A stretch of DNA of 64,000 nt from Bacteroidales bacterium (lineage in GTDB: Bacteria > Bacteroidota > Bacteroidia > Bacteroidales > UBA12077), in the NCBI GenBank assembly GCA_021108325.1, contig JAIORB010000038.1, positions 17,217 to 81,216 on the forward strand, written 5' to 3'. Both the position numbers and the translations under genes were made by a program. Shown piece after piece: positions 25,626 through 41,508 of the stretch (positions are counted from its first letter, which is position 1; each line of letters opens with the position of its first letter). The notes beneath the pieces are model-generated. The model was not told the origin of the DNA. It worked only from the letters and a program-made list of their open reading frames with translations, and did not search any database.

Positions 25626-26018
25626 ATGGCTTTAAAAGAATCGGATATAAAGAAGTATTCTATACAAATTGCTGAAAAAAATGAGGTGTTTGTATGGATA
25701 GGTCCATGTTCTGTTAAAAAAATGGAATTTACAAAAATACCACTGGATGGTAGAAAGTATGAATGTGGAGGAGAAGTCTTTCTGGCAAATGGACTTGTTT
25801 TACAAGCTAGTTTCAGAATGCAGAAAACCAATGATGTTTTATTAATTGAAGACACTGTTTATACAAAAATTGATGGAATATGGTATAAACTCAATGAACC
25901 TGAATTCCTTGAAAAAACCGGTTTGGACAAAGAAGATGTTTTTCCTGTTGAATGGAAACCGGACATCCCATTAAATCACCCATTAAAAGGACCATACAAA
26001 ATGAACTGGAAAGGATAA
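25626..26018 (+). CDS. hypothetical protein
   Basis: 130-aa ORF preceded by aaggag and followed by a strong terminator. No motif recognised. Confidence 0.4.
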   Translation: MALKESDIKKYSIQIAEKNEVFVWIGPCSVKKMEFTKIPLDGRKYECGGEVFLANGLVLQASFRMQKTNDVLLIEDTVYTKIDGIWYKLNEPEFLEKTGLDKEDVFPVEWKPDIPLNHPLKGPYKMNWKG

Positions 26019-26047
26019 AAAAAGGAGAGCAATTTTGCTCTCCTTTT
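26017..26047. terminator. bidirectional intrinsic terminator (end of the sulfur operon)
   Basis: aaaaaaa-ggagagc-aatttt-gctctcc-tttt between convergent genes. Confidence 0.75.
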
Positions 26048-27119: not shown

Positions 27120-27124
27120 ATCCT

Positions 27125-27403
27125 TTACTTTTTCAGTTTGTAAAAATAAAATTCGTCCATATCGTCTACTTCTCCGGCTTCAATATTTCCGTATTTCTGA
27201 AGAGTCATAAGATGATATGTTACAACATCCAGAGGAAGATCTATTTCTTGTGCTATTTGTGGAACAGTTTTTTCTTCGGTTTCCAGAGATTTTAAAATCT
27301 GCCTTTTGATTTTATTAAAGGCTTTCATATTTTCTTTTACCGAATCGGAAACTTTCCTTTTTGTCTTAATAATGTCTATTGTTTTTCCCATAATTTTATG
27401 CAC
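27125..27403 (-). CDS. small winged-helix (ArsR/MarR-like) protein embedded in the redox module
   Basis: 92 aa. KRQILKSLETEEKTVPQIAQEIDLPLDVVTYHLMTLQKYGNIE looks like an HTH plus wing. It is 2 nt and 5 nt from its neighbours. Confidence 0.45.
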   Translation of the reverse strand: MHKIMGKTIDIIKTKRKVSDSVKENMKAFNKIKRQILKSLETEEKTVPQIAQEIDLPLDVVTYHLMTLQKYGNIEAGEVDDMDEFYFYKLKK

Positions 27404-27405
27404 TA

Positions 27406-29343: not shown

Positions 29344-30628
29344 AACCTCCTCTTAAATAACCTGATGTTTCTGCAGAAGCTGCACCTGCTGATAGGATAG
29401 AGTCCGGAATATCCATTGGACCGGATGCTGTGCCAGCTACGTATACACCACTCATATTAGTTTGAGCAGGATTTGCCAGTATGTCTTTTTGTTCAACAAA
29501 ATTATATTGATCAAGCTCAAGTTTATTATTAAACATTGATGAAACACCATCGTTAGCTAGTATCCCTACTGATAAAACAGCCATGTCATGATTTGCTTCT
29601 TTAACAACACCACTTTCAATATCTTCATAACGAAGTTTTAAATCTCCATTTTCAGTTTCTTCAATTTTCCCTATTTTCCCTTTTATGAAAGTAACACCCA
29701 TATCTTTAGACTGTTGATAGAATTCGTTGAAACCTTTACCAAAAGAACGTATATGAAGATAATATATGGTAACGTCAGCCATAGGTAAAGCTCCCATTAA
29801 AAGTTGAGCTTGTTTTATTGAGTACATGCAACATACTTGAGAACAGATAGGATTTCCTACTGTTTCGTCACGCGATCCTGCACATAATACATAAGCAATA
29901 TTATCAGGAACTTTTCCATCTTTTGGTCTTAGTACATTATTGTAAGGCCTTGTAGGTACAAGTTGTCGTTCCATTTGCATTGATGTTACCACATTCTTAA
30001 ATACTCCGAATCCGTATCGTGGTATTAAGGTTGGGTCAAAAAGCTTAAAACCTGTAGCGATTACTACTGATTTAACTTTAATCTGTATTTCTTCTTCCTC
30101 TTGTGTAAAATCTATACAATCTGCAGGGCATACTTTTTCGCATGCTCCGCATAAGCTGCAGTTTTCAATATCAATTGCAGCAACACGAGGGTTTGCAATG
30201 CTGAAAGGAACATAAACAGCTTTTCTGCCAACTAAATCATACTGATATTGATCCTGTACGGTAACAGGACATGCTTCTTCGCACAATTGACACCCTGTAC
30301 ATGCATCTTCAATTACATATCTTGGATGTTTTGTTAAAAGAGCTCTAAAATCATATTCCGATTTTTTATCAATATTACTTACTTCACTGTATGTATAAAT
30401 AGTTATATTGGGATGCCTTGCTGTTTCGGATACTTTCGGTGTGGTTATACAAGCTGAGCAGTCCAGTGTAGGAAAAACTTTACTAAGATGTATCATTTTT
30501 CCGCCAACGGATAAATCTTTCTCAACGATAAGAACTTTATATCCCTGGTCGGCTAAATTTAATGCTGCTTCCTCACCAGAAATTCCTCCTCCGATAACTA
30601 GTACATCATATTCTTCTGTTTTTGACAT
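29330..30628 (-). CDS. QmoA/HdrA-type FAD/Fe-S flavoprotein
   Basis: VIGGGISGEEAALNLA, LDCSACITTPK, CTGCQLCEEACP, CSLCGACEKVCP and CSQVCCMYS. Overlaps the next gene by 14 nt. Confidence 0.8.
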   Translation of the reverse strand: MSKTEEYDVLVIGGGISGEEAALNLADQGYKVLIVEKDLSVGGKMIHLSKVFPTLDCSACITTPKVSETARHPNITIYTYSEVSNIDKKSEYDFRALLTKHPRYVIEDACTGCQLCEEACPVTVQDQYQYDLVGRKAVYVPFSIANPRVAAIDIENCSLCGACEKVCPADCIDFTQEEEEIQIKVKSVVIATGFKLFDPTLIPRYGFGVFKNVVTSMQMERQLVPTRPYNNVLRPKDGKVPDNIAYVLCAGSRDETVGNPICSQVCCMYSIKQAQLLMGALPMADVTIYYLHIRSFGKGFNEFYQQSKDMGVTFIKGKIGKIEETENGDLKLRYEDIESGVVKEANHDMAVLSVGILANDGVSSMFNNKLELDQYNFVEQKDILANPAQTNMSGVYVAGTASGPMDIPDSILSAGAASAETSGYLRGGYDEK

Positions 30629-30644
30629 ATTGAGTTATTTTTAA

Positions 30645-31046
30645 TTAATTCCCTTTAGATTCTGATAAAAATTTGTGGAATGATTTCATGTGTTTAACAA
30701 AAGCTTCTGCACAAACTGAGCATATTGCAGCCATTTTTAATTTTGCAGGATCAATGTTTTTTTCTTTCATTAATTCATGAGTGTTTGCAACAATTTTTGA
30801 TGTTTTATCAGAACAAGTATCACTGAATGAACAATCTGTTCCATCGGCAGCGATAAATACTCCATCGAAACCTTTATCAAAAGCATGTAAAATCCATTTT
30901 GATTTTATTGCGCTTGAGCAAGGAACATTAACGGTATATACTGTTGCGGGATAATGTTTTTTCAGAAGCCCCGCCATATCAATAGCGGGGTCAGAAATTT
31001 TCTCAGTAGAAAAAACCAGAATTTTTGGATTATCTGTGTTTTCCAT
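30645..31046 (-). CDS. MvhD/FlpD-like (methyl-viologen-reducing hydrogenase delta-type) protein, divergent Cys pattern
   Basis: 133 aa with KILVFS...VNVPCSS...AFDKGFDGVFIAADGTDCSFSDTC...KLKMAAICSVCAEAF. The fold-level pattern is FlpD-like, but the N-terminal CxxC position reads STEK. Confidence 0.6.
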   Translation of the reverse strand: MENTDNPKILVFSTEKISDPAIDMAGLLKKHYPATVYTVNVPCSSAIKSKWILHAFDKGFDGVFIAADGTDCSFSDTCSDKTSKIVANTHELMKEKNIDPAKLKMAAICSVCAEAFVKHMKSFHKFLSESKGN

Positions 31047-31051
31047 TTTTC

Positions 31052-31303
31052 TTAGCCTTTCTTCATGTAGATTTTGAAATATCCTGAATCTTCTGCTGTT
31101 CCTAAATATTCGTGTCCTTTTTTAGCAGCCCATTTTGGAATATCTTTTCTTGTACCTTCATCAGCTGAAAGAACTTCCATAATCTGGCCTGAACTAATTT
31201 CAGCTATTGCTTTTTTTGCAGCTAATAGCGGGCCAGGACATGCTGTACCTCTTGCATCAACTGATTTGTCAACGTTTAATGCTTTTAATTCTTCTTCGTT
31301 CAT
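31052..31303 (-). CDS. tusA: TusA-family sulfur carrier
   Basis: 83 aa with VDARGTACPGPLLAAKKAI (CPxP motif). Confidence 0.8.
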   Translation of the reverse strand: MNEEELKALNVDKSVDARGTACPGPLLAAKKAIAEISSGQIMEVLSADEGTRKDIPKWAAKKGHEYLGTAEDSGYFKIYMKKG

Positions 31304-31362: not shown

Positions 31363-31791
31363 TTAAATAAATAAATGAATATCAGCTTCTTCTGCAGCAG
31401 TAATGTATTCTCCTATACCAACAATATCATCTGCTAAGTCGATAAAATCTTCTAGTTTTTCTCCGCCCCAAATTTTACCGGCTAACCCGCAGATATGAAT
31501 TTTTACATTTGTTAATTCTTTAGCTTCTTTAAAGAATTCATGCCATTCTTTCACATTTAATTTATCTAATGAATTTATAAACTCATCACGCAAATGAGAA
31601 TTTTCGGCAAGTTTTATCTCATCTTTATTTGTTGCAATTTCTTTTTTAAACGCCCTTGCAGCTTGTAAAAGTACATATATATCTACGTCCATATCGTCAG
31701 CAGCAGCCCCGCTAAGTATCACTCCTGCAGCTGTTAGTTTATCTAAACACCCTGAAAAAAGAGCTAAACACATTTTTTTATTATCTTCCAT
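31363..31791 (-). CDS. DsrE3-like (COG2210 / DsrE-DsrF-DsrH-like) sulfur-relay protein, paralogue 1
   Basis: 142 aa with LDKLTAAGVILSGAAADDMDVDIYV, conserved Cys in KIHICGLAGKIWG, and the C-terminal EADIHLFI typical of this family. Confidence 0.6.
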   Translation of the reverse strand: MEDNKKMCLALFSGCLDKLTAAGVILSGAAADDMDVDIYVLLQAARAFKKEIATNKDEIKLAENSHLRDEFINSLDKLNVKEWHEFFKEAKELTNVKIHICGLAGKIWGGEKLEDFIDLADDIVGIGEYITAAEEADIHLFI

Positions 31792-31832
31792 AGTTTTAAG
31801 TTTTTATTGTTAATTATTTAATAAGTATTATT

Positions 31833-32246
31833 TTAAATAAATAAATTAACATCTGCTTCCTGAACAGACTCAATGTATTCGCCAATGCCACAAATGTCAT
31901 CAACGAGATCGATAAAATCTTCCATTTTTTCACCACCGGCAATTTTACCTGCTAAACTACAGATATTAATTTTTACTTCGGTCAATTCTTTTGCCATTTC
32001 AAAAAATTCTATCCATGATGGTGTATTTAATTTTTCAAGAGAAGCTTTAAACTCCTCAGGTGTTTGAATATCTTCACTCATATTAGATATATCAGCAGCC
32101 TTGTTTTTTAAAAATGCATGACCAGCATTTACTAAAACAAATACATCTACTTCCATATCGTCGGCGGCAGCACCACTAAGTATTACACCTGCACTAATAA
32201 GTTTATCAATGCTTGATGTGCCTAAGCCCATTGTCATTTTTGCCAT
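31833..32246 (-). CDS. DsrE3-like (COG2210) sulfur-relay protein, paralogue 2
   Basis: 137 aa, collinear with paralogue 1 (IDKLISAGVILSGAAADDMEVDVFV, KINICSLAGKIAG, EADVNLFI). Confidence 0.6.
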   Translation of the reverse strand: MAKMTMGLGTSSIDKLISAGVILSGAAADDMEVDVFVLVNAGHAFLKNKAADISNMSEDIQTPEEFKASLEKLNTPSWIEFFEMAKELTEVKINICSLAGKIAGGEKMEDFIDLVDDICGIGEYIESVQEADVNLFI

Positions 32247-32271: not shown

Positions 32272-32772
32272 TTAACCTCCACAACCTCCACCTGATGATT
32301 CTTTTTTTACAGGTGTAGGTGCTGCTTCTCCCATTCCTTGTTCAACGAACTCGGGATAAGTAGCTTCCCAATCGAACCAACTGAAATCAAGCATGTAGCA
32401 ATCGGAATATTTTAATAACTTTAATGACTGAACAGCTAATGCTCCGCTACCCACTTCATTACCAATTACTAAAGTTTTAATCCTCCTGTTTGAAAGTTTG
32501 CTCGAAAATTCAAGAAGCCCTCTTGGAATATGAATAGATCCTGAAATATGCCCTAGCATGAAATCATAATCTTCACGACAATCAATTATTTGTATTTCTG
32601 TATGATTATCAATTAAAGCTTTTAATTCTTCCATGCTCATGGTATTAACTTCTGCTTTAGCAGCAGTAACCATATCTTCGGCATTTTCATATACAGTATT
32701 ATCTTTTTTTACACAACTGAAAAGCAGCGTAAGAGATAATATAGCCGGAACAATAAATTTTATGAATCTCAT
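32272..32772 (-). CDS. rhodanese-fold lipoprotein lacking the catalytic Cys, with C-terminal GGCGG tail
   Basis: Track ORF trimmed to ATG 32772 (MRFIKF...LTLLFSC lipobox), which removes the overlap with the upstream gene. The active-site loop position reads LVIGNEVGSG. The C-terminus is ...PTPVKKESSGGGCGG*. Confidence 0.7.
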   Translation of the reverse strand: MRFIKFIVPAILSLTLLFSCVKKDNTVYENAEDMVTAAKAEVNTMSMEELKALIDNHTEIQIIDCREDYDFMLGHISGSIHIPRGLLEFSSKLSNRRIKTLVIGNEVGSGALAVQSLKLLKYSDCYMLDFSWFDWEATYPEFVEQGMGEAAPTPVKKESSGGGCGG

Positions 32773-32785
32773 AATTGAATTAGTT

Positions 32786-33589
32786 TTATTTCCATTCGTT
32801 ATAAGCACCATCATAAACTTTAACATTTGGATATTCTAAAATTGATGTTAATGCAAGAAATACAACACCAGCTCTAACACTTGTAGCACAATAAAGAATT
32901 ATTTCCTTGTTTTTAGTCATTCCTGCACTATTAAAAAGTTTTTCCAATTCAGCTTTTGATTTTAACTTTCCACCATCGGCAAGAACATTTTTAAACTCAA
33001 GATGCTTTGCTCCGTTAATATGTCCTTCGCCCCATTCTGTGTCGTCTCTAACATCAACAATAACTGCAGAGTTTAATTTTGATTTCACATAAGCTTTATT
33101 GCAAAAAATCTTAGAATTTACTTTAGGTGTAAAAGTAACAGCAGTAACTTTTGTAGCTGCATTTGTAACCGGACCTCTGGCGGTTCTCCATGCCTGCATA
33201 TGCCCATCAAGAACTTTAACATCGTTAAATCCTAAATATTTAAGAATCCAGTATAATCTTCCTGAACCTTTATTTGAACCTGTATCGTAAATAACAATTT
33301 TCTTAGCAGGGTCAATTCCCTTTTTTCCTAAAATTGTTGCCAGCTCAGCAGGAGATTTTAGAATTCCTTTTGGTTCTGTAGTACTTGCTAAAGCATCTAT
33401 GCTAACGTTCACAGCATTTCTGATGTGTACTTTTGCATAATCTTCAGCACTTCTTGTAGAAACAATAACTGTGCTTTTATTATTAACTAATTTTTTTGCT
33501 TCTGCTGCAGAGATTAAATCCTGAGCAATTGAAATATTTACAAAAATGGTTAATAATAAAAAACTAAATAATATGTTTTTAAATTTCAT
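32786..33589 (-). CDS. periplasmic two-domain rhodanese (thiosulfate sulfurtransferase-like)
   Basis: Signal peptide (VNISIA-QD). The N-domain is inactive (VIYDTGSNKGSGR) and the C-domain is active (ILYCATSVRAG). Confidence 0.8.
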   Translation of the reverse strand: MKFKNILFSFLLLTIFVNISIAQDLISAAEAKKLVNNKSTVIVSTRSAEDYAKVHIRNAVNVSIDALASTTEPKGILKSPAELATILGKKGIDPAKKIVIYDTGSNKGSGRLYWILKYLGFNDVKVLDGHMQAWRTARGPVTNAATKVTAVTFTPKVNSKIFCNKAYVKSKLNSAVIVDVRDDTEWGEGHINGAKHLEFKNVLADGGKLKSKAELEKLFNSAGMTKNKEIILYCATSVRAGVVFLALTSILEYPNVKVYDGAYNEWK

Positions 33590-33603: not shown

Positions 33604-34641
33604 TTAAAATTTAACTTGAACTTGTAATACTACCTGATCATTAGGAATTTCAGCTCCATGTTCAGCCCTATATCTGTAATTTAACTGAATTCTTGTCCAA
33701 TCGTTTAAGAAATAGTTAATTCCATAAGTCGTAATGAATTCAGTATTATCATCAATAGATACGTTAGCATCATAACTTTCTAACTTAAATACAGGTTGTA
33801 AATTCCATTGAGTCATATACATTGCCTGAGCAAAGAAACCACTACGTGTTACACCACCAGTGTGGAATTCGATTGGTGTTCCGTCGCAACCACCACCAGT
33901 TGTATAGTCTCCGCTATCATCGGCCCATAAGTATTCACTCTGGAATAAGAAATTACTATATTTTATTTGAAGTTCACCTCCCAAACGAGTTTTTTTATTG
34001 TCCTCATTTGCTCCTGTTTTACCATAAGCAAAACTTCCACCAAATTGTACGAATTCTACAGGTGAAATAGTTACACGTCCTTTAATACTTTTTGCAATAT
34101 TTTCATCCTCGAAACCTCTTTCGTAATCGTTCATTATTGCAAGATAATAATGAAGCTTAGAATCGGCTGTTCCACCAAATAACATAGCTCCCATATCGCG
34201 TTGTGGGCCTGCAAGTTCATTAACAACCTTTGAACGATAAATTGTATGTAATGACTGGCATGCAGTGTTTTGTTCTAAACTTATCGGAGATTTAAATTGT
34301 CCGAAAGTTACTTTAGCCCAATCATATCTGGTATATGATACAAATGCATCTAGTATCCATGGTGAACCGGATTTGAATTTAGAGAAATCGATCATTACAA
34401 AATAACTTACATCATAAGGTATGCTTCCTAATGCAGCTATTCTGGCACGATTAAGTGTAAAGCTGTTAGCATCATGACCATCAGTTGTTTGCCAATATTC
34501 CCATTGTGGCTGAATATATCCTTTTATACTTACTCCCTCATCAGATGATGCCTCCATACAACCTTGTGCAGAAATTACATTTACAGATGTAAATATAATC
34601 AGCATTGAGAGAGTTAATATTGATATTGATTTTTTAATCAT
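33604..34641 (-). CDS. outer-membrane porin (porin O/P-like beta-barrel)
   Basis: Signal peptide, alternating amphipathic strands, and a C-terminal ...VLQVQVKF ending in Phe. Confidence 0.6.
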   Translation of the reverse strand: MIKKSISILTLSMLIIFTSVNVISAQGCMEASSDEGVSIKGYIQPQWEYWQTTDGHDANSFTLNRARIAALGSIPYDVSYFVMIDFSKFKSGSPWILDAFVSYTRYDWAKVTFGQFKSPISLEQNTACQSLHTIYRSKVVNELAGPQRDMGAMLFGGTADSKLHYYLAIMNDYERGFEDENIAKSIKGRVTISPVEFVQFGGSFAYGKTGANEDNKKTRLGGELQIKYSNFLFQSEYLWADDSGDYTTGGGCDGTPIEFHTGGVTRSGFFAQAMYMTQWNLQPVFKLESYDANVSIDDNTEFITTYGINYFLNDWTRIQLNYRYRAEHGAEIPNDQVVLQVQVKF

Positions 34642-34670: not shown

Positions 34671-35648
34671 TTATTCTGTTGGTAAATCAGTAATTACTGT
34701 AGCATCCCACTTACTGGAAGTAAGATCATTATAGATCATTCCATTTGCACCGAATTTTAAGCTATGAGAATTATAACCTAAAACGTATAAATAAGCAGTA
34801 ATAACTGAAGAAGTCTGACCAGTCCAGCAATAAGTTACAACATCTTTAGATGGATCTAAATATATATATTCTTCGCCCGCTAGCGTAAGAGGATTAATTC
34901 TGTGTGCACCAGAAATATTACCATAAGTAGTAACATCAGTAGCAGCCCAGTAATTGTTAATGAAATATGATCCGGGAGCATCTAATACACCAGGACTGTC
35001 ACCTGTTATAGCTGTAACACCTCTTAAACTACCGCTTAATAATGAAGTAACTCTTGCTTCTAAAATAGCAGCACCATCTCCGGTTTCTGTAATATCAGGA
35101 TCTTTGTATTCTGAGGTATGCTCAATAATTGATCCTGGTGATGCAATCCAGTTAGGACTTGAAATAGTATTTGTATTTGGACTCCATGAATCTGTTGAAG
35201 TATGCCATCCGCTCATTCCCCATTTTAATACTTTTGCAGTAGGATAACCACTAAGCCTTAAGGCACAAACAGCATGCCCTGCAGTTTGCCCGGTGTAACA
35301 AACAACAATAATAGTTTTTCCGGCTGCGCTGGCAGCTTGTGTTACAACATTACCATACGAGCAGTTTACAGCACTAGGTATATGACTGGTTGCATAAGCA
35401 TCAGCTTTACGGATGTCTATAACATAATAATTTACTAAATCTGCATTTACAGTTGCAGCGGTAGTTATCCAACCATCTAATATATTATTTAAATCGAGGT
35501 CGTTGTTTTGTAAATAAGTAATTAAAGTTTGAAATTCAGCATCTGTTTCACGTTCCGGTATTAGATCATCAGTATCATCTTTACAAGATGTTAAAACAAA
35601 TGCAGGAATCATTAATAATAAAATAGAGAATCTTAAAAACTGTTTCAT
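34671..35648 (-). CDS. two-domain rhodanese lipoprotein
   Basis: Track ORF trimmed to ATG 35648 (MKQFLRF...FVLTSC lipobox). Two rhodanese-type loops: VVCYTGQTAGH and VTYCWTGQTSS. Confidence 0.7.
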   Translation of the reverse strand: MKQFLRFSILLLMIPAFVLTSCKDDTDDLIPERETDAEFQTLITYLQNNDLDLNNILDGWITTAATVNADLVNYYVIDIRKADAYATSHIPSAVNCSYGNVVTQAASAAGKTIIVVCYTGQTAGHAVCALRLSGYPTAKVLKWGMSGWHTSTDSWSPNTNTISSPNWIASPGSIIEHTSEYKDPDITETGDGAAILEARVTSLLSGSLRGVTAITGDSPGVLDAPGSYFINNYWAATDVTTYGNISGAHRINPLTLAGEEYIYLDPSKDVVTYCWTGQTSSVITAYLYVLGYNSHSLKFGANGMIYNDLTSSKWDATVITDLPTE

Positions 35649-35680: not shown

Positions 35681-36166
35681 TTATCCACCACAACCACCTG
35701 ATTCAGGTTGTTTAGTAACTGTAGGATTTTCTCCGGCAAAGCCAAACCAGCCTCCTTGAAGGTTGGAAACATTTTCAAATCCCAGTTTTTTAAGTGCTTG
35801 TGTTGCAAGTGTGCCTCTGGCACCAGACTTACAATACACAATTATTTTGTCAGTTTTAAGAGGAGTGTACATGAATTGTTCTTCCCAATAATATTCATCA
35901 AGAATAAAGAATTCCAATTCACCACGTGGGATAGAGAATGATCCTGGGATATTACCCGCTTCGTATTCGGCAGGTTGTCTAATATCTAATAAAAGGAATT
36001 CTTCTCCGTTATCTATCATTGATTTTAATGTATCAACGCTTATTTCATTTATTTCAGATTTAACAACACTTGCTAATTCTTTTCCGTCTTCATAAATTGC
36101 GGTACAAGCAGAAAGCAAGAAGATAAGCAGTGCTAAAATCGATATATTGAATTTTATATTTTTCAT
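35681..36166 (-). CDS. single-domain rhodanese lipoprotein with intact active site and C-terminal SoxY-type GGCGG tail
   Basis: Lipobox LLSAC, active loop IIVYCKSGARG, and C-terminus ...NPTVTKQPESGGCGG* (DNA: caacctgaatcaggtggttgtggtggataa on the minus strand). Confidence 0.8.
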   Translation of the reverse strand: MKNIKFNISILALLIFLLSACTAIYEDGKELASVVKSEINEISVDTLKSMIDNGEEFLLLDIRQPAEYEAGNIPGSFSIPRGELEFFILDEYYWEEQFMYTPLKTDKIIVYCKSGARGTLATQALKKLGFENVSNLQGGWFGFAGENPTVTKQPESGGCGG

Positions 36167-36194: not shown

Positions 36195-37409
36195 TTAAAA
36201 AGCACTGAATTTTCCTGTGCGTTCGTTCCATTTAACAAATACATACCAAACAAGTATGATTAACAGAACAATTAAGACCGCTCCTGCATATCCAAAGTAG
36301 TCAGGAAGATAATTCTTAAATTTCATGTTATGAGGAAGCTTATTAACAATAGCAGGAACTATATAAAGTTTTGAAATAGGAGATATTAATAAAAATCCTA
36401 AAGCAGCCATCCATAATTTCACTTGTCCTTCGCCAACTCTCCATAAGGTACCTACGGCACATCCTCCGGCAACGGTCATTCCTAATCCAAATATAAATCC
36501 ACCAATAAGACCACGTAACCAGAATTGACTGAAAACCCAGGTCATTTCTCTTGCGCGAATTGAAATTTCGCTTGCACCTATTCCAAAGAATTTAATAGCA
36601 GTAAATCCAATAAGAGTAATTAGCAATCCTGCCATAACCCCTACAGAACCGTCGCTTTCACCTGTCATGAAAGGATCTCTGAAAGCTTTAACAATGCAAA
36701 AACGAGATCTTTGACAAATAAGACCCATTAATAATCCGGATATGATAAACCATGCTAATACTCCATTTGTACCTGCAACTTTATATGCAAGAATAAATGT
36801 TCCGATTGATACAATCCAGCCTAGCCAAATTTGCCAATTTCCTTTGCCTTCTGGGGCTGCAAGAAAAGTAAAGCTTTTTCCGGAACTCATTCCAGGCCAT
36901 TTTTCCATTTCCCAAAGAAGATATTTAAGTGCAAGAATAGTACCCGCAAAAAGACCTATTGTAAAAACAATTGCACCACCTGATAAGGCAGGAACACCAC
37001 TAAAGAATGAACCAATAGTACACCCAAGTCCAAGGGTAGCACCAATTGCCATAAGTGCACCGCCAATAAAACCTTTTAGCAATTCTCCTTTTGGAGGAAT
37101 TCGTAATGCAAATTCTTTTGAGAAAAGAGCTCCTGCAAAAGATCCTAAAATAAGTACCAGACATAATACACCATAAAGACTTGTACTTGTAGGTGCTGCG
37201 TTTTCAAAAGCAGAAATACCGAAAAGTTTAAAAATGTTTTCTCCCCAGTTGTTAATACCTCCGCTGGCACCCCATGGGCTTTTTACTGTAAACAATAAAA
37301 TGTTTAATAAACCCAGAGTTACACCACCAACCCATACAGGCCAATGTTTTGCGAAAAATGTATTAAATAATTCCCGGAGTATTCCTGGCTCTTTTTGTTG
37401 ATCAGCCAT
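36195..37409 (-). CDS. yeeE: YeeE/YedE-family thiosulfate/sulfur-compound transporter (TsuA-like)
   Basis: 404 aa, polytopic, with duplicated halves carrying GLGCTIGSFFSG and AGGCAVGTLW motifs. Confidence 0.85.
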   Translation of the reverse strand: MADQQKEPGILRELFNTFFAKHWPVWVGGVTLGLLNILLFTVKSPWGASGGINNWGENIFKLFGISAFENAAPTSTSLYGVLCLVLILGSFAGALFSKEFALRIPPKGELLKGFIGGALMAIGATLGLGCTIGSFFSGVPALSGGAIVFTIGLFAGTILALKYLLWEMEKWPGMSSGKSFTFLAAPEGKGNWQIWLGWIVSIGTFILAYKVAGTNGVLAWFIISGLLMGLICQRSRFCIVKAFRDPFMTGESDGSVGVMAGLLITLIGFTAIKFFGIGASEISIRAREMTWVFSQFWLRGLIGGFIFGLGMTVAGGCAVGTLWRVGEGQVKLWMAALGFLLISPISKLYIVPAIVNKLPHNMKFKNYLPDYFGYAGAVLIVLLIILVWYVFVKWNERTGKFSAF

Positions 37410-37418
37410 TTTTACCTC

Positions 37419-37649
37419 CTATTTTTTTTGAATTAGAAATCTAAAAACACCACTTTCAACTTCACCTTCTTCAACTATTGTGTTGCCAGTTTTTTCGCAC
37501 CATTTTGGCAAATCTGATTTTGTTCCAGGATCGGTTCCAAGCATTTCTAAAACTTCACCTGAGTTTAATCCTTTAATTGCTTTAGCCAGTTTCATCATTG
37601 GCATTGGACATGAAAGCCCTTTACAATCTAATGTTTCTTTAATTTCCAT
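37419..37649 (-). CDS. TusA-family sulfur carrier (YeeD/TsuB-like)
   Basis: 76 aa with LDCKGLSCPMPMMKLAKAI, 9 nt upstream of yeeE. Confidence 0.8.
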   Translation of the reverse strand: MEIKETLDCKGLSCPMPMMKLAKAIKGLNSGEVLEMLGTDPGTKSDLPKWCEKTGNTIVEEGEVESGVFRFLIQKK

Positions 37650-37839: not shown

Positions 37840-38535
37840 ATGGAAAGATTCTCAGCGTTAAATAGCTGCACTGTAAGTAATTCTAAATGTATTTGTTTCG
37901 ATGTGTTAACGGAAGAAGAACAGGATTTGATAAGTAAAAACCAGATTGAAGTTCGTTATAAAAAAGGTGAAGTAATTTGTAAACACGGAACATTTGCCCC
38001 TCATATTATATTTTTGAAAGAAGGATTAGCCAAGGTTTATCTGGAAGGATTAAATGATTCTTTAATTTTAAAGATAATCACATCAGGTAATTTGATTGGG
38101 CTTACTACGATCATGGAGGACAATAATGTGTTTCATTATTCATCATCAGCATATGTTGATTCAACAGCAAACCTTATTGATATAAATATATTTAGAAAAA
38201 TTATTAAACAAAATGCTGAGTTTGCAAGTTCTATAATAAATATATTATGTGAAAACTCTTTACAAACTTTCGGAAGATTTTTTTGCCTGACTCACAAGCA
38301 ATTATACGGCAGGATGGCTGATATTATTTTATGTTTATCAGAAAGAATCTTTAAAGAAAGAAATTTTGAAATGAATCTTTCGAGAAAAGAACTTGCTGAA
38401 TTAACCGGAATGTCGACAGAAAGTGTTATTCGAATGCTTAAGAAATTTAAAGACGACGGTATAATTGAAATGCATGGAAAGACTCTTAATATTTCAAATT
38501 ATGATTTGTTAAGAAAAATTAGTGAATACGGATAA
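37840..38535 (+). CDS. Crp/Fnr family transcriptional regulator (N-terminal C-X6-C-X-C)
   Basis: cNMP-binding-like beta-roll plus a C-terminal HTH (LSRKELAELTGMSTESVIRMLKKF). N-terminal Cys10/Cys17/Cys19. Confidence 0.8.
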   Translation: MERFSALNSCTVSNSKCICFDVLTEEEQDLISKNQIEVRYKKGEVICKHGTFAPHIIFLKEGLAKVYLEGLNDSLILKIITSGNLIGLTTIMEDNNVFHYSSSAYVDSTANLIDINIFRKIIKQNAEFASSIINILCENSLQTFGRFFCLTHKQLYGRMADIILCLSERIFKERNFEMNLSRKELAELTGMSTESVIRMLKKFKDDGIIEMHGKTLNISNYDLLRKISEYG

Positions 38536-38559
38536 AAGTAAGTTGATAATATTTAATTA

Positions 38560-38590
38560 AAGAGCTGTCAAATTTGATGGCTCTTTTTAT
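38560..38590 (+). terminator. intrinsic terminator
   Basis: aagagc-tgtcaaatttgatg-gctctt followed by tttat. Confidence 0.55.
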
Positions 38591-38719
38591 TTTATGTTGC
38601 CTTGCTTTTATTGTGAGAAAATGGTCAATATATTTTAGCTTGACATATTGATTTTATGTCAAATTCAAAATGGTTAATCAACAAGACTATAATTTTTAAT
38701 GAAGTTTGATACGTTAATC

Positions 38720-39412
38720 TTATCCGTTTTTACTAATACTTTTAAGTAGTTCCAGATTCTTAATTTCAATTTTTTTTCTATTTAATTCAATTATTTTTTC
38801 ATCGCTAAATTCCGATAAAATCCGAGCTACACTTTCTATAGCCATTCCGGATAATTCGGCTAAATCTTTCCTTGTAATATATGAAAAAACATCAATAGAT
38901 TTAAATTCTTCTCTATTTAGATACAATAGGGTATTTGCCAGCTTCCCATGTAGTTGTCTAAGGCCTAAGTTTAAACATTTAGTAAGCATGATATTATAAT
39001 TCTTACAATACCAGCTCGCTGTTTCACGAGAAAAATCACAACTTTGAGAAATTAAATCTTTAATACCTTCCCGATCAATTGAACAAACTTTTGTTTCTTT
39101 TAGTGCAGCAGCAGAAAAGTAATATGTATCATCCCCAAAAAGAGATGTTAATCCTAGAAAATCACCTGGTTTTAGTAATTTTATTATGATATTCCTTTCA
39201 GGGCCTTCGATATATGTTTTAACTAGTCCGTCCAAAACATACAATATGTTTGAAACACGGGAGCCTTCTTTTATTATTGTTTCTCCTTTTTTATAATTAA
39301 TATGGATTTTTTGTAAATTATAAAATTCCTCTATTTTTTCAATGTTTTGAATAAAACAATCTGAACTTCTGTTACATTCATTGCAATTTGTTTTTTCGAA
39401 ATATCGATTCAT
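38720..39412 (-). CDS. FNR-like regulator with C-X2-C-X5-C cluster motif
   Basis: N-terminal CNECNRSSDC has the same spacing as E. coli FNR Cys20/23/29, and there is a fourth Cys in KVCSID near residue 110. The HTH is ITRKDLAELSGMAIESVARILSEF. Confidence 0.8.
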   Translation of the reverse strand: MNRYFEKTNCNECNRSSDCFIQNIEKIEEFYNLQKIHINYKKGETIIKEGSRVSNILYVLDGLVKTYIEGPERNIIIKLLKPGDFLGLTSLFGDDTYYFSAAALKETKVCSIDREGIKDLISQSCDFSRETASWYCKNYNIMLTKCLNLGLRQLHGKLANTLLYLNREEFKSIDVFSYITRKDLAELSGMAIESVARILSEFSDEKIIELNRKKIEIKNLELLKSISKNG

Positions 39413-39609: not shown

Positions 39610-40965
39610 TTATTTAAACATTGTTTTATAAGCCACATTTTCTGCTGCTTTTAGTAAAGGATAACCTGCAGGAGAGGCTGTTAGTAAAGGATGAGTCCCA
39701 ATTTGTGAAGTTAAAATGGAATTTATATTCATTCTGTTTTGAATAATGACACCAATAATATTTGTTAATTCTCCTACGGATGAACCTCCAACTACTTCTC
39801 CACCTAAAATTACATTTGATTCTTTTCCGACAATTAATTTAACAAGTTGTTTCTTTGCTCCAGGGAGTGCCCCCGGGTGTTTATCCATTCCCTCAAATAC
39901 CCCTGTTATTACATCAAATCCTTCTTCTGAGGCTTGCATCTCAGTTATTCCGGCAACTCCAAAAGCAATATCACCAATCATTGTTGAAAAAATTGAAATT
40001 GTTCCACTAAATGTTTTAATGGCACAAAGTTTAAATAAATTCATTCCGGCAGTTCTGGCTTCGGCGCATGCTGTAGATGCCAACATTGTACAGCATGGTT
40101 TTCTTGTTATAAAATCATGCTTTTGGGCACAATCACCTACTGCAAAAATATCCGGGTCATCTGTTCTCATATATTCATCAACATTTATGCAGCCTTGTTT
40201 ACTTAAGCTTAATTCGGATTCTTTTGCTAGTGTAGTATTAGGATGATATCCTATTGATAATACAACTGCATCTGTTTCAAGTATTTTACCGTTATCTAAC
40301 AATACTTTATTTACTTTTTTATCCCCTTCTAATTCTTTAACACCGATGCCGGTTATAATTTTAACACCCCTTTCCTGGAGCACTTCTTCTGCCTTAATTG
40401 ATATTTCTTCGTCGAAGCATAAACCCAAAATATGAGGTAATTTTTCAATTAGAATAATTTCCTTACCAGTTTTTTTCAATTCATCAGAAAGTTCAACACC
40501 TATAAATCCGGCACCAACAACAATAATTTTATTGCATTTATCAAGCTTGGTTTTCATTATATCAAGGTAGTCTTTATCTTTTGGTACTGAAAAAACATTT
40601 TCTAAATCAGCTCCTTTTAACCATGTGGGAACTGATGGAGAAGAACCTGTCGCCAGAACGAGCTTTTTATATGAAATTTCTTCCTTATCTTTTAAAATAC
40701 AAGTTTTTTTTTCGCGGTTAATAGAAATAGCTTCTCCAATAATCAGATTAACACTTGAGTTTTCAAGCATCTTTTCAGATGGTAATATGTTATCATTCGT
40801 ACCATTAATTGAAGCGAATGTATAAGGTATACCGCATGGAACAAGAGTTTTTTCTTCTTTTCTTATAACTGTAAATGTTTTATCAGGATAAACTTTTTTC
40901 CCTGTTAGGGCTGTAACCATACCTGCGGCACTACTCCCTATTACTAATACATCAGTACTTTTCAT
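39610..40965 (-). CDS. CoA-disulfide reductase / NADH oxidase-type pyridine nucleotide-disulfide oxidoreductase
   Basis: VIGSSAAGMVTAL, a single redox Cys in TLVPCGIPY (Nox/CoADR position), a second GxGxxG (VVGAGFIGVELSD) and AVGDCAQ. No C-terminal rhodanese domain. Confidence 0.8.
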   Translation of the reverse strand: MKSTDVLVIGSSAAGMVTALTGKKVYPDKTFTVIRKEEKTLVPCGIPYTFASINGTNDNILPSEKMLENSSVNLIIGEAISINREKKTCILKDKEEISYKKLVLATGSSPSVPTWLKGADLENVFSVPKDKDYLDIMKTKLDKCNKIIVVGAGFIGVELSDELKKTGKEIILIEKLPHILGLCFDEEISIKAEEVLQERGVKIITGIGVKELEGDKKVNKVLLDNGKILETDAVVLSIGYHPNTTLAKESELSLSKQGCINVDEYMRTDDPDIFAVGDCAQKHDFITRKPCCTMLASTACAEARTAGMNLFKLCAIKTFSGTISIFSTMIGDIAFGVAGITEMQASEEGFDVITGVFEGMDKHPGALPGAKKQLVKLIVGKESNVILGGEVVGGSSVGELTNIIGVIIQNRMNINSILTSQIGTHPLLTASPAGYPLLKAAENVAYKTMFK

Positions 40966-41019: not shown

Positions 41020-41508
41020 TTAAATATTTTGTACAGTGAATTTATAATGCGTGTTTTCTTTAGAGTTATTAAGCATCTTGGCAAGGATTGTTTCTTCTTT
41101 TTTTGTCTTTTTTAACATATAGTAAAATATATTAATCATTGTTTCATTCAATTCATTTTCAGAGGCTAATATGTTATAAAGTTTAATAAGGCAATTATCA
41201 AAATATAATTCTATTTTAATTAAATCAGCCATAGACAAGTCTGGTCCTGTTTTTATATTTTTGAAACATTCCGATATTTGATTTGATAATTTGTTAGAAG
41301 GAAAACCTAACCAACAGTTCATTGCTTTTGCAATTTTTTTATGTTTTTCAAGATAGCTTTCACGAAATTTTTCATGTTGATACAGATCATATATTAACAG
41401 TTTAATTTCTTCGTTTTCAACCTTTTCATAGAGTCCAAAGTATAATTGAGCCACTTGTTTATGATAAGATTGAATTTGTTCGATGATTTTGCTTTTTTGT
41501 TTATACAT
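41020..41508 (-). CDS. hypothetical helical protein
   Basis: 162-aa ORF with helical heptad-like composition. No motif recognised. Confidence 0.35.
   Translation of the reverse strand: MYKQKSKIIEQIQSYHKQVAQLYFGLYEKVENEEIKLLIYDLYQHEKFRESYLEKHKKIAKAMNCWLGFPSNKLSNQISECFKNIKTGPDLSMADLIKIELYFDNCLIKLYNILASENELNETMINIFYYMLKKTKKEETILAKMLNNSKENTHYKFTVQNI

What the first reader, a model, noticed from the sequence alone, without database searches (positions are those of the whole stretch)
35681..36166. Rhodanese lipoprotein carrying a SoxY-type GGCGG-COOH swinging-arm cysteine
The ORF ends ...GENPTVTKQPESGGCGG*. This is read directly from the minus strand as cct gaa tca ggt ggt tgt ggt gga taa. The tail follows a Pro/Thr/Gln linker attached to a single rhodanese domain with an intact catalytic loop (IIVYCKSGARG). 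The protein starts with a lipoprotein signal (LLSAC).

A Cys embedded in GGCGG at the extreme C-terminus is the defining feature of SoxY. In SoxY it covalently carries thiosulfate-derived intermediates on a flexible arm. I am not aware of a described rhodanese with this tail.

The fusion suggests a self-loading periplasmic carrier. The rhodanese Cys would abstract sulfane sulfur from thiosulfate or polysulfide and pass it to the arm Cys, or the reverse. That would replace the SoxXA plus SoxYZ division of labour.
Basis: partly seen in the sequence, partly recalled or inferred. Interest (0 to 1): 0.88.

Follow-up and report, generated by a model that had tools for sequence, protein, structure and literature searches.

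The report
Rhodanese lipoprotein with cysteine-tipped flexible tail
A small exported sulfur-transfer enzyme of a sediment Bacteroidales bacterium ends in a floppy Gly-Gly-Cys tail like that of the sulfur carrier SoxY, and this undescribed tail is conserved and always encoded beside sulfur-handling membrane machinery, most likely as an arm that hands sulfur over.

Summary
ORF 35681..36166 (-) encodes a 161-aa lipoprotein-type rhodanese with an intact catalytic loop, a disordered linker and the C-terminus GGCGG. It is not chance. The tail Cys is kept in 85/91 homologues while the linker drifts.

A paralogue eight genes away (32272..32772) carries the same tail but has lost the catalytic Cys. Across 1.5 Mb of related loci, 122 of 128 Gly-Cys C-termini sit on rhodaneses.

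The conserved core is G-G-C plus 0-2 residues (GGCGG, GGCGD, GGCG, GGC-COOH), not strictly GGCGG.

Tailed rhodaneses occur in Bacteroidota, Zixibacteria and Verrucomicrobiota. They are encoded next to a YedE/YeeE-TusA importer (as here), a PsrABC-type reductase, or an Otr-like multihaem cytochrome.

Here the gene lies in a 14-gene operon: TusA, YedE, tailed rhodanese, LES-type rhodanese lipoprotein, porin, soluble rhodanese, second tailed rhodanese, two DsrE-like proteins, TusA, and a Qmo/Hdr-like complex.

Best reading: a persulfide-carrying arm that delivers sulfane sulfur to the YedE cysteine relay. It works like SoxY or Sud but belongs to neither family. "Replaces SoxXA" is not supported.

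I found no description in the searchable literature. All chemistry is inferred. Verdict: new variant of a known kind.

The parts
35681..36166 (-). T1: 161-aa tailed rhodanese lipoprotein, the subject of the finding. Lipobox Cys21, catalytic Cys112, tail Cys159.
   Evidence: ORF and translation. PF00581 at E 2.4e-21. 90 homologues. Cys columns 88/91, 84/91 and 85/91. AF2 model mean pLDDT 85. Foldseek gives ordinary single-domain rhodanese hits: 6mxv, 2hhg, TSTD1 6bev.
36104..36166 (-). Signal peptide with lipobox L-S-A-C (residues 1-21).
   Evidence: Sequence. The lipobox Cys is conserved in 88/91. It is followed by the conserved motif T-A-I-Y-E-D-G, with no K-(D/E)2 export signal.
35831..35833 (-). 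Codon of catalytic Cys112 in the loop C-K-S-G-A-R.
   Evidence: Invariant in the 27-sequence alignment A1.
35684..35734 (-). Flexible tail: a linker of about 12 residues (ENPTVTKQPES) plus the terminal GGCGG. The Cys159 codon is 35690..35692.
   Evidence: pLDDT is 73 then 53 over the last two 10-residue blocks. The linker is variable while G157, G158, C159 and G160 are about 91-93% conserved (83-85 of 91). Among 250 distinct tailed rhodaneses, the distance from the domain's GG motif to the Cys is at least 15 residues, with modes at 21-22 and 34-35.
32272..32772 (-). T2: paralogous tailed rhodanese lipoprotein (166 aa from MRFIKF). It has no catalytic-loop Cys, an invariant Cys in the 'IIDCRE' strand, and the tail SSGGGCGG.
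   Evidence: PF00581 at E 7.5e-13. 91 homologues. Loop column is G51/S38/C2, DCRE Cys 92/92, tail Cys 91/92. 31% identical to T1, E 1e-23. AF2 mean pLDDT 84 with tail pLDDT 45.
36195..37409 (-). YedE/YeeE-family membrane protein (Sulf_transp), 28 nt upstream of T1.
   Evidence: PF04143 at E 3e-54. NCBIfam YedE/FdhT and TsuA models match below their cut-offs. The alignment to Spirochaeta thermophila YeeE aligns two Cys directly with chain Cys (GLGC/GGC and AGGC motifs); the third (RSRFCIV) aligns to Ala in the deposited chain, which from memory is the C22 site.
37419..37649 (-). TusA-family protein, first gene of the operon and presumed cytoplasmic acceptor of YedE.
   Evidence: PF01206 at E 2e-25. 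The TusA-YedE-T1 order is conserved in loci L003-L045.
34671..35648 (-). Tandem-rhodanese lipoprotein (Rhd340) with C-K-D-D-T-D-D after the lipid Cys.
   Evidence: PF00581, two stretches. C-K-[DE][DE] follows the lipobox in nearly all orthologues. This fits the Bacteroidetes lipoprotein export signal K-(D/E)2 (PMC5080379).
33604..34641 (-). Outer-membrane porin of the phosphate-selective O/P type.
   Evidence: PF07396 at E 4e-13. Conserved between the two tandem rhodaneses.
32786..33589 (-). Soluble exported tandem rhodanese (Rhd267) with an SPI-type signal ending ..AQ|D.
   Evidence: PF00581 at E 3e-39. Weak match to the ExtH model NF040901. N-termini. In some loci this protein carries a ..DGGC tail.
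31363..32246 (-). Two DsrE_2-like small proteins (31833..32246 and 31363..31791).
   Evidence: PF13686 at E 1e-9 and 1.7e-8. Conserved synteny.
31052..31303 (-). Second TusA-family protein.
   Evidence: PF01206 at E 6e-23.
26070..31046 (-). Qmo/Hdr-like redox module: MvhD/FlpD (30645..31046), HdrA-like 432 aa (29330..30628), HdrA-like 645 aa with a 2x[4Fe-4S] domain (27406..29343), and QmoC-like membrane FeS subunit (26070..27119).
   Evidence: Pfam. NCBIfam HdrA2 and QmoC models match below their equivalog cut-offs. Conserved synteny.
26020..26047 (-). Terminator-like 12-bp hairpin that ends the operon.
   Evidence: Intergenic gaps inside the operon are at most about 60 nt, except 286 nt before the QmoC-like gene (coordinates).
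37840..39412 (.). Two Crp/Fnr-family regulators (37840..38535 + and 38720..39412 -) upstream of the operon.
   Evidence: Pfam cNMP_binding plus HTH_Crp_2. A Crp-family gene also precedes the Psr- and Otr-linked tailed-rhodanese modules.

Best explanation
T1 is a membrane-tethered periplasmic sulfane-sulfur transferase and carrier.

Proposed mechanism:
1. Its rhodanese Cys112 picks up zero-valent sulfur as a persulfide. The donor would be polysulfide or thiosulfate that entered through the operon's porin, or the neighbouring exported rhodaneses.
2. The sulfur is passed to Cys159 at the tip of a disordered, Gly-flanked tail of 15 or more residues.
3. This thin arm reaches into the periplasmic mouth of the adjacent YedE/YeeE-type membrane protein and hands the sulfur to its cysteine relay.
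4. The sulfur then goes to cytoplasmic TusA, the DsrE-like proteins and a Qmo/Hdr-like quinone-linked redox complex.

T2 is the paralogue that has a tail but no catalytic Cys. It would be a second arm loaded in trans. In relatives the same kind of arm (GGC-COOH) would serve PsrABC-type or Otr-like periplasmic reductases.

Shown here: the anatomy, the conservation, the low-confidence (probably disordered) tail, and the gene linkage. Inferred: every chemical step, the direction of transfer, and the redox direction of the pathway. I favour a reductive pathway in which sulfur is the electron acceptor.
For: - Anatomy. T1 has a lipobox, a rhodanese domain with an intact C-X5 loop, and only two free Cys.
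- Flexibility. The tail has low pLDDT in both T1 and T2 models. The linker is rich in E, A, P, K and S and is never shorter than 15 residues.
- Selection. The tail Cys is kept in 85/91 (T1 family) and 91/92 (T2 family) while the linkers vary.
- Specificity. 122 of 128 Gly-Cys C-termini among 3321 ORFs are on rhodaneses.
- Linkage in Bacteroidota. TusA-YedE-T1 adjacency and the whole operon order hold across 45 Bacteroidota species-level genomes.
- Linkage in other lineages. The same adjacency recurs with different rhodanese architectures: a Zixibacteria triple rhodanese ending SSGCGG/GGGCGG, a Verrucomicrobiota tandem rhodanese ending DDGGCG, and an unassigned lineage ending EVEEGC.
- Sister group. 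GGC-COOH proteins sit at the head of a rhodanese-porin-rhodanese-PsrABC module, or after an Otr-like cytochrome and cytochrome b.
- Control. In one metagenome scan, tail-bearing proteins had such neighbours in 12/14 cases against 5/25 for tail-less ones (Fisher p 1.2e-4).
- Co-variation. The T1 and T2 tails of one genome share the residues after the Cys in 32/36 cases (permutation p 1.5e-4). This fits a shared docking partner.
- Acceptor. The YedE here keeps Cys at all three positions of the S. thermophila YeeE pore (two align directly with chain Cys, the third rests on the published numbering).
- Literature. SoxY's GGCGG Cys carries sulfur (PMC6067878). Passing sulfur from the SoxY Cys along the three Cys of YeeE-like SoxT is called 'conceivable', and the hand-off is described as unknown (PMC11582611).
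Against: - No biochemical evidence exists for any adduct on either Cys.
- I could not measure whether the tail reaches Cys112 or the YedE pore, because no model coordinates or complex prediction were available.
- Four homologues (P0080, P0081, P0083, P0085) keep the catalytic Cys but lack the tail, so the tail is dispensable in some lineages.
- PMC11582611 itself questions direct Cys-to-Cys sulfur passage in YeeE-type channels, since the Cys are about 7 A apart. For E. coli and S. thermophila YeeE the substrate is free thiosulfate.
- Which membrane holds the lipid anchor is unknown.
- The co-variation and association statistics are not corrected for phylogeny. The T1/T2 co-variation could also reflect gene conversion.
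Confidence: 0.55

Rival explanations
1. Resolving cysteine. The tail Cys attacks the persulfide on Cys112 (or a partner's persulfide). This releases sulfide and forms an intramolecular disulfide or trisulfide. T1 would then be a thiol-dependent thiosulfate/polysulfide-cleaving enzyme, or a redox-gated one, rather than a carrier that delivers sulfur to YedE.
For: T1 has two free Cys, one catalytic and one on a flexible segment long enough in principle to fold back. From general knowledge, C-terminal resolving cysteines are common in thiol enzymes, and rhodaneses use thiol acceptors such as thioredoxin or glutathione.
Against: None of the 14 conserved operon genes has a thioredoxin, DsbD or CcdA-type domain that could re-reduce such a disulfide in the periplasm. 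T2 keeps the tail but has no catalytic-loop Cys. A 147-aa non-rhodanese exported protein in L137/L138 carries the same ..VEEGC tail beside a YeeE gene. The tight linkage to membrane acceptors is not explained by this model.
Confidence: 0.2
2. Structural or regulatory cysteine. The tail Cys forms an intermolecular disulfide (T1-T2 heterodimer, or a tether to a partner), or it senses periplasmic redox or sulfide state. It does not carry substrate sulfur.
For: T1 and T2 are always co-encoded, are adjacent in reduced operons (L025, L029, L039, L041, L042, L045), and their tails co-vary.
Against: GGC-tailed proteins of the Psr and Otr modules, and the Zixibacteria and Verrucomicrobiota proteins, occur without a T2-like partner. 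A structural disulfide would not need a disordered spacer of 15 to 35 residues or flanking glycines.
Confidence: 0.12
3. The tail is a sorting, anchoring or metal-binding signal, for example C-terminal processing, lipidation or Cu/Zn binding. It would be unrelated to sulfur transfer.
For: From general knowledge, short C-terminal Cys-containing motifs serve as sorting or lipidation signals in other systems. The acidic stretch before GGC could bind cations.
Against: No hydrophobic segment follows the motif. The motif is absent from the other exported proteins of the loci, including T9SS-tailed proteins, and 122 of 128 occurrences are on rhodaneses. Its neighbours are sulfur enzymes, not metal systems.
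Confidence: 0.05

Closest known systems
SoxY (sulfur carrier of the periplasmic Sox system)
   Same: It is an exported protein whose substrate-binding Cys sits in a carboxy-terminal GGCGG sequence on a mobile arm (PMC6067878). The last five residues of T1 are identical. SoxY-bound sulfane sulfur is proposed to be imported through YeeE-like SoxT proteins (PMC11582611), and T1 is encoded next to a YedE/YeeE homologue.
   Different: T1 has no SoxY domain; only PF00581 is found. No SoxZ, SoxXA or SoxB was found in the window. The arm hangs from a disordered linker of about 12 residues on a catalytic rhodanese domain. The motif is looser, G-G-C plus 0-2 residues. The resemblance covers five residues only, so convergence is likely.
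Sud, the periplasmic polysulfide-sulfur transferase of Wolinella succinogenes (PDB 1qxn)
   Same: It is a periplasmic single-domain rhodanese-fold protein that binds polysulfide sulfur on a Cys and supplies a membrane sulfur reductase. It gives a weak but significant sequence match to T1 (E 1.9e-5). GGC-tailed relatives of T1 head operons that end in PsrABC-type genes.
   Different: Sud has a single cysteine (title of Klimmek et al. 1999, cited in PMC6378623) and no cysteine tail. As far as I know it has no lipid anchor. T1's immediate partner is a YedE-type membrane protein, not Psr.
ExtH/ExtI of Geobacter sulfurreducens (rhodanese-like lipoprotein plus outer-membrane porin, encoded with the polysulfide-reducing cytochrome MccSep/ExtKL)
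   Same: It is a precedent for a rhodanese lipoprotein working with an outer-membrane porin next to a periplasmic polysulfide reductase (PMC13510729 and its reference 58). Rhd267 of this operon weakly matches the ExtH model.
   Different: The resemblance concerns the neighbouring tandem rhodaneses and the porin, not T1. I could not check whether ExtH has a cysteine tail. The scores are far below the ExtH family cut-off (68 against 200 bits).
YTD gene cluster (YedE, TusA, DsrE-2, Chp2, Chp1) of sulfur-disproportionating bacteria, and TsuA/TsuB (YeeE/YeeD) thiosulfate uptake
   Same: The core is the same: a YedE/YeeE membrane protein, TusA and DsrE-like proteins. The YTD function is also undetermined (PMC9751629).
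   Different: Those systems are described without exported rhodaneses, a porin or a Qmo/Hdr-like module. The gene order also differs. Correspondence of Chp1/Chp2 to any protein here was not tested.

Membership tests
Rhodanese-like domain family (PF00581), sulfurtransferase type | Profile match above the curated threshold. | tested here: met
   76.5 bits against a cut-off of 22.2, E 2.4e-21, covering profile positions 1-100 of 102. Foldseek top hits are all rhodanese domains.
Rhodanese-like domain family (PF00581), sulfurtransferase type | Catalytic Cys at the start of a six-residue active-site loop after the central strand. | tested here: met
   IIVY-C112-KSGAR-G. The Cys is invariant in alignment A1 and present in 84/91 homologues.
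Rhodanese-like domain family (PF00581), sulfurtransferase type | Sulfane-sulfur transfer activity with a persulfide intermediate. | not testable with these tools
   This needs an enzyme assay or mass spectrometry.
SoxY | SoxY domain (immunoglobulin-like fold, Pfam SoxY family). | tested here: not met
   A Pfam scan at E <= 0.01 returns only PF00581. The AF2 model is an alpha/beta rhodanese fold.
SoxY | Cys within a carboxy-terminal GGCGG. | tested here: met
   The window protein ends GGCGG. The last residue varies among orthologues (G, D, E, S or absent).
SoxY | Partner SoxZ, and a context with soxXA and soxB. | tested here: not met
   No Sox family was found among the 50 window ORFs scanned against Pfam, which is not every ORF of the window. 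The rest of the genome could not be examined.
SoxY | Covalent carriage of thiosulfonate or persulfide on the arm Cys. | not testable with these tools
   This needs mass spectrometry of the loaded protein.
Sud-type periplasmic polysulfide-sulfur transferase | Exported single rhodanese domain with sequence similarity to Sud. | tested here: inconclusive
   An export signal is present. Similarity to 1qxn is only 28 bits, E 1.9e-5, weaker than to many other rhodaneses.
Sud-type periplasmic polysulfide-sulfur transferase | A single essential Cys. | tested here: not met
   Mature T1 has two Cys, at positions 112 and 159.
Sud-type periplasmic polysulfide-sulfur transferase | Functional coupling to polysulfide reductase PsrABC. 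| tested here: not met
   No Psr genes are in this operon. GGC-tailed relatives are encoded with PsrABC-type genes.
Bacterial lipoprotein (signal peptidase II substrate) | N-terminal signal peptide ending in a lipobox [LVI][ASTVI][GAS]C. | tested here: met
   ...IFLLSA-C21. The Cys is conserved in 88/91. Acylation itself is not testable here.
YTD cluster / TsuAB-type YedE-TusA sulfur import module | Adjacent YedE/YeeE-family membrane protein and TusA, with DsrE-like proteins. | tested here: met
   PF04143, PF01206 and PF13686 all hit within the operon. Two pore Cys align directly with S. thermophila YeeE chain Cys; a Cys is also present at the third site.
YTD cluster / TsuAB-type YedE-TusA sulfur import module | Presence of the two conserved hypothetical proteins Chp1 and Chp2 (PMC9751629). 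| not tested

The most novel reading that the evidence does not exclude
The Gly-Gly-Cys tail is a general 'plug-in' delivery arm. YedE/YeeE-type membrane proteins would then not only take up free thiosulfate. They would also accept protein-bound persulfide sulfur that a carrier's C-terminal arm threads into the channel.

On this reading the 14-gene operon is an envelope-spanning covalent sulfur relay. It would run from a surface-exposed rhodanese, through the porin, soluble rhodanese, tailed rhodaneses, YedE, TusA and DsrE, to a Qmo/Hdr-like complex. That would constitute a previously unrecognised mode of zero-valent-sulfur respiration in anaerobic Bacteroidota. The same arm would be reused for Psr- and Otr-type reductases and found in at least three phyla.
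Probability: 0.3. Interest if true: 0.85.

Novelty: new variant of a known kind. Interest (0 to 1): 0.7.

Why it matters
How periplasmic sulfur carriers hand zero-valent sulfur to membrane importers is an acknowledged gap. PMC11582611 states that the sulfur is transferred to the cytoplasm 'by unknown means'.

A rhodanese with a SoxY-like cysteine arm encoded right beside a YedE/TusA pair, in several phyla and in several domain architectures, gives a concrete two-cysteine system to test. The experiments are accessible: mass spectrometry, Cys-to-Ser variants and disulfide trapping to the transporter.

It also points to a widespread, unannotated sulfur-handling operon in sediment, cold-seep and sulfidic-spring Bacteroidales. 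These organisms are usually regarded as fermenters. Finally, it offers a simple sequence marker, an exported rhodanese ending in G-G-C plus 0-2 residues, for finding such systems.

Tried and rejected
- **Chance or low-complexity artefact.** Rejected by the conservation and the specificity to rhodaneses.
- **Selenocysteine read-through.** The T1 stop is TAA. One relative (L083) has TGA exactly at the tail-Cys codon (..SDSGG[TGA]D[TAG]). The downstream hairpin is not better than shuffles (z -0.63), and no other case was found. This is left open as a nonsense mutation or Sec.
- **ThiS/MoaD-like C-terminal GG thiocarboxylate carrier.** Rejected. The fold is rhodanese, the protein carries an export signal, and no adenylating enzyme is in the operon.
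- **A curated family for this protein.** NCBIfam gives only sub-threshold matches to rhodanese domains of MoeB/MoeZ, GlpE, PspE and similar.
- **Literature.** Searches for rhodanese plus GGCGG, C-terminal cysteine, swinging arm, YeeE/HdrA/Bacteroid*, and Psr/porin/lipoprotein returned nothing describing such a tail. The library lacks most subscription journals, so absence is not proof.
- **A strict split of GGCGG with YedE versus GGC-COOH with Psr/Otr.** This holds in the Bacteroidota sample. It is broken by L137/L138, where ..EEGC-COOH lies next to YeeE.
- **Metagenome scan with the 19-sequence GGC alignment.** It failed because no conserved stretch was available. It was repeated with 8 sequences.
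- **Sigma-70 promoter scan.** Uninformative: 60 sites found against 61 expected.
- **Tail-to-active-site distance.** Not measurable, because the model coordinates are not exposed.
Full report
**1. The observation**

The minus-strand ORF 35681..36166 encodes 161 residues. It starts with a signal peptide ending in the lipobox L-S-A-C (Cys21). It contains one rhodanese domain (PF00581, 76.5 bits, E 2.4e-21) with the loop IIVY-C112-KSGARG. It ends ...ENPTVTKQPESGGCGG, followed by TAA. After lipid modification of Cys21, the mature protein would have just two cysteines, the catalytic Cys112 and Cys159. An AlphaFold2 model built on 27 homologues is confident for the domain (mean pLDDT 85). Confidence drops to 73 and then 53 over the last two ten-residue blocks, so the tail is probably disordered. 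Foldseek finds only ordinary single-domain rhodaneses: 6mxv, 2hhg and human TSTD1.

**2. It is not chance**

A search of 5.8 billion proteins returned 90 homologues, all from Bacteroidales or Bacteroidota metagenome bins where named. In the alignment the lipobox Cys is present in 88/91, the catalytic Cys in 84/91 and the tail Cys in 85/91. G157, G158 and G160 are conserved in 83-85 of 91 (about 91-93%), whereas the linker changes freely. The last residue varies: GGCGG, GGCGD, GGCGE and GGCGS all occur. Four homologues lack the tail but keep the catalytic Cys.

A second ORF of the same operon, 32272..32772, which I call T2, is a paralogue of T1 (31% identity, E 1e-23). It also has a lipobox and ends SSGGGCGG. 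In its 91 homologues the tail Cys is kept in 91/92 (GGCGG, GGCGD, GGCG, rarely EGC). The catalytic-loop position, however, is Gly or Ser (G51/S38/C2), and a different Cys in the strand IIDCRE is invariant. The T2 model also has a confident rhodanese-like core and a low-confidence tail of pLDDT 45.

Across the window and all 138 fetched loci (1.5 Mb, 3321 ORFs of at least 60 aa), 128 ORFs end in a Gly-Cys tail, and 122 of them match a rhodanese profile. Two of the six exceptions are a 147-aa exported protein ending ..HVEEGC. It sits between rhodanese genes, about 2 kb from a YeeE gene, in L137/L138.

**3. The genomic setting**

T1 lies in a tightly packed minus-strand operon running from 37649 to 26070. 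It is closed by a 12-bp terminator-like hairpin at 26047..26020. The gene order is:
- TusA
- YedE/YeeE-family membrane protein (PF04143)
- T1
- a tandem-rhodanese lipoprotein
- a phosphate-porin-type outer-membrane channel
- a tandem rhodanese with an ordinary signal peptide
- T2
- two DsrE_2-like proteins
- a second TusA
- MvhD/FlpD
- two HdrA-like flavoproteins
- a QmoC-like membrane iron-sulfur protein

A scan of one genome per species found the family in 45 Bacteroidota bins. The record titles assign them to Bacteroidales, Tenuifilaceae, Marinilabiliales, Lentimicrobiaceae, Draconibacterium and Paludibacter, and one bin is labelled Chlorobiota. My reading of the isolate labels (for example CSMAG, ZodW, SulCav, GSL) is that several come from sulfidic settings; the titles do not state the sources. 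The whole gene order is conserved. In six loci the three middle genes are missing and T1 and T2 are adjacent.

The YedE protein keeps the cysteines that line the pore of Spirochaeta thermophila YeeE. Two of them (in GLGC and AGGC motifs) align directly with chain cysteines. The third (RSRFCIV) aligns to Ala in the deposited chain, which I take from memory to be the C22 site. Its two halves are in swapped order relative to that structure.

The tandem-rhodanese lipoprotein has C-K-D-D-T-D-D after its lipid Cys, and nearly all its orthologues have C-K-[DE][DE]. This matches the Bacteroidetes lipoprotein export signal K-(D/E)2 that sends lipoproteins to the cell surface (PMC5080379). T1 (C-T-A-I-Y-E-D-G) and T2 lack it. 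The rest of the window is ordinary Bacteroidota chromosome, with T9SS-tailed proteins, primase, RNase R and an RND efflux pump. It contains no Sox genes among the ORFs scanned.

**4. The tail is a wider phenomenon**

An exhaustive profile search of 1.84 billion representatives gave 44,398 rhodanese hits. Among the best 148, 32 end in a Gly-Cys tail. The tails come in two forms. In one the Cys is followed by one or two residues, as in GGCGG. In the other the Cys is the last residue, as in ..[DE]xGGC-COOH. Most of these proteins are 150-200-aa lipoproteins with an intact catalytic Cys.

Their neighbourhoods fall into three recurring patterns:
- (A) Crp regulator, tailed rhodanese, tandem-rhodanese lipoprotein, porin, tandem rhodanese, then a molybdopterin oxidoreductase, a 4Fe-4S protein and NrfD. 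This is a PsrABC/PhsABC-type reductase.
- (B) Crp regulator, Otr-like multihaem cytochrome c (PF11783), cytochrome b, then the tailed rhodanese. This is often followed by module A.
- (C) TusA, YedE, then the tailed rhodanese, as in the window.

In the metagenome scan, 12 of 14 tail-bearing proteins with enough flank had such neighbours, against 5 of 25 tail-less relatives (Fisher p 1.2e-4). The test is not phylogeny-corrected.

Pattern C recurs outside Bacteroidota with different rhodanese architectures. Zixibacteria have a minimal TusA-YeeE unit followed by a three-domain rhodanese lipoprotein ending SSGCGG or GGGCGG. A Verrucomicrobiota genome has YeeE followed by a tandem rhodanese ending DDGGCG. 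Another lineage has a 531-aa rhodanese ending EVEEGC followed by YeeE and TusA. Within genomes, the T1 and T2 tails tend to share the residues after the Cys (32/36; permutation p 1.5e-4). The spacer from the domain's GG motif to the Cys is never shorter than 15 residues. It is rich in Glu, Ala, Pro, Lys and Ser.

**5. How it most likely works**

Three things are shown: the anatomy, the conservation, and the linkage to membrane sulfur machinery. The rest is inference.

I think T1 is a tethered periplasmic sulfane-sulfur transferase whose catalytic Cys forms a persulfide, which is established rhodanese chemistry. Its tail Cys then receives that sulfur and carries it, on a thin Gly-flanked arm, into the acceptor next door. 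Here the acceptor is the YedE pore with its cysteine relay, followed by TusA, the DsrE-like proteins and the Qmo/Hdr-like complex.

T2 has a tail but no catalytic Cys. This shows that the arm can matter without a cis active site, so loading in trans by T1 or by the soluble tandem rhodanese is likely.

The sister modules end in Psr-type and Otr-type enzymes. Polysulfide and tetrathionate reductases of these types are reductive, and my reading of the isolate labels is that many source environments are sulfidic. For both reasons I favour a reductive role, with zero-valent sulfur as the electron sink. The direction remains unproven.

Published parallels support the plausibility:
- The Cys in SoxY's C-terminal GGCGG carries the substrate (PMC6067878).
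- In Hyphomicrobium, SoxY-bound sulfur is imported by the YeeE-like SoxT1A 'by unknown means'. A relay from the SoxY Cys along the three transporter cysteines is called conceivable, though the authors note the 7 A spacing (PMC11582611).
- Sud supplies polysulfide sulfur to Psr.
- Geobacter couples a rhodanese lipoprotein (ExtH) and a porin (ExtI) with a polysulfide-reducing cytochrome (PMC13510729).

**6. Rival explanations**

- A resolving-cysteine role, producing an intramolecular disulfide with sulfide release, is chemically reasonable. However, no thiol-disulfide oxidoreductase is encoded in the conserved operon. It also does not explain T2, the tailed non-rhodanese protein, or the linkage to membrane acceptors.
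- A purely structural T1-T2 disulfide fits the co-variation. It does not fit the many tailed proteins that occur without a T2.
- A sorting or metal-binding signal is unlikely, given the restriction to rhodaneses in sulfur operons.

**7. Comparison with known families**

T1 is a bona fide member of the rhodanese family. It is not a SoxY: the domain test fails, no SoxZ, SoxXA or SoxB was found, and the resemblance is five terminal residues only. It is not a Sud orthologue either, since the similarity is weak, it has two cysteines and it has a lipid anchor. Functionally it looks like a fusion of what Sud does (catalytic pick-up) with what SoxY does (arm-borne carriage).

No curated NCBIfam model names the family. 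Source annotations say only 'rhodanese-like domain-containing protein'. Five full-text searches found no description of such a tail. The library omits most subscription journals, so this is not proof of absence.

**8. Verdict**

This is a real, conserved and apparently undescribed variant of a known kind of protein. It carries a specific, testable mechanistic hypothesis that bears on an open question, namely how sulfur is handed to YeeE-family transporters. I score interest at 0.70. The lack of any biochemical evidence, and of phylogeny-corrected statistics, keeps confidence in the mechanism at about 0.55.

Noticed in passing
window 32272..32772 (-): The paralogue T2 keeps the lipobox and the GGCGG tail but has Gly/Ser where the catalytic Cys should be. 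It has instead an invariant Cys in the strand 'IIDCRE' (92/92). This may be a relocated reactive Cys or a pure carrier.
   Followed up: partly
window 34671..35648 (-) and 33604..34641 (-): The tandem-rhodanese lipoprotein has C-K-D-D-T-D-D after its lipid Cys, and C-K-[DE][DE] is conserved in orthologues. This matches the Bacteroidetes surface-export signal. It is encoded next to a Porin_O_P-type channel, which suggests a surface rhodanese plus porin pair resembling Geobacter ExtH/ExtI.
   Followed up: partly
window 26070..31046 (-): A Qmo/Hdr-like set (MvhD, two HdrA-like proteins and a QmoC-like protein) is encoded with TusA and DsrE-like proteins. No AprAB, DsrAB or HdrBC is in the window, so its redox partner and direction are unknown.
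   Followed up: no
window 36195..37409 (-): The two homologous halves of the YedE protein align to S. thermophila YeeE in swapped order (query 221-339 to chain 6-114, and query 76-153 to chain 239-317). Its best NCBIfam match is the YedE/FdhT selenium-type model, below the cut-off.
   Followed up: partly
L083 4345..4893 (+): A T1-like gene next to TusA-YeeE has TGA exactly where the tail Cys codon should be (..SDSGG[TGA]D[TAG]). It could be a selenocysteine tail or a nonsense mutation. The downstream hairpin is not significant (z -0.63), and this is the only case found.
   Followed up: partly
L137/L138 7269..7712 (+): A 147-aa exported protein with no Pfam domain ends ..PEHVEEGC. This is the same tail as the neighbouring 531-aa rhodanese (..AEVEEGC). 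It lies about 2 kb from a YeeE-TusA pair, flanked by rhodanese genes, with multihaem cytochromes and a Rieske/cytochrome b pair further along.
   Followed up: no
L047-L050, L060, L065, L066, L074, L076, L077: There is a recurrent module of a Crp regulator, an Otr-like multihaem cytochrome c (PF11783), cytochrome b (Ni_hydr_CYTB) and a GGC-tailed rhodanese. A TusA or a 76-aa protein sometimes follows, and the module is often fused to the rhodanese-porin-rhodanese-PsrABC module.
   Followed up: partly
L026 10719..11624 (-), L031 9934..10839 (-), L060 13672.., L065 13665..: In some genomes the soluble tandem rhodanese (the Rhd267/Rhd281 type) also carries a ..DGGC or ..GGGGC C-terminal tail. The tail therefore appears on at least three rhodanese architectures within the same system.
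   Followed up: partly
window 39610..40965 (-), with 37840..38535 (+) and 38720..39412 (-): A CoA-disulfide-reductase/NADH-oxidase-type flavoprotein without a rhodanese domain lies just upstream of the operon, beyond two Crp/Fnr-family regulators. A homologue is similarly placed only in L010.
   Followed up: no
L099 1624..1899 (+), L107/L108 11995..12276 (+): Small non-rhodanese ORFs end ..AMAGGC or ..EMVGGC. They look like ThiS/MoaD-type carriers with a residue after the GG. They are unrelated to the exported tails but are caught by the same pattern.
   Followed up: no
window 41020..41508 (-) and 25626..26018 (+): Two ORFs that flank the locus (162 aa and 130 aa) have no Pfam match.
   Followed up: no
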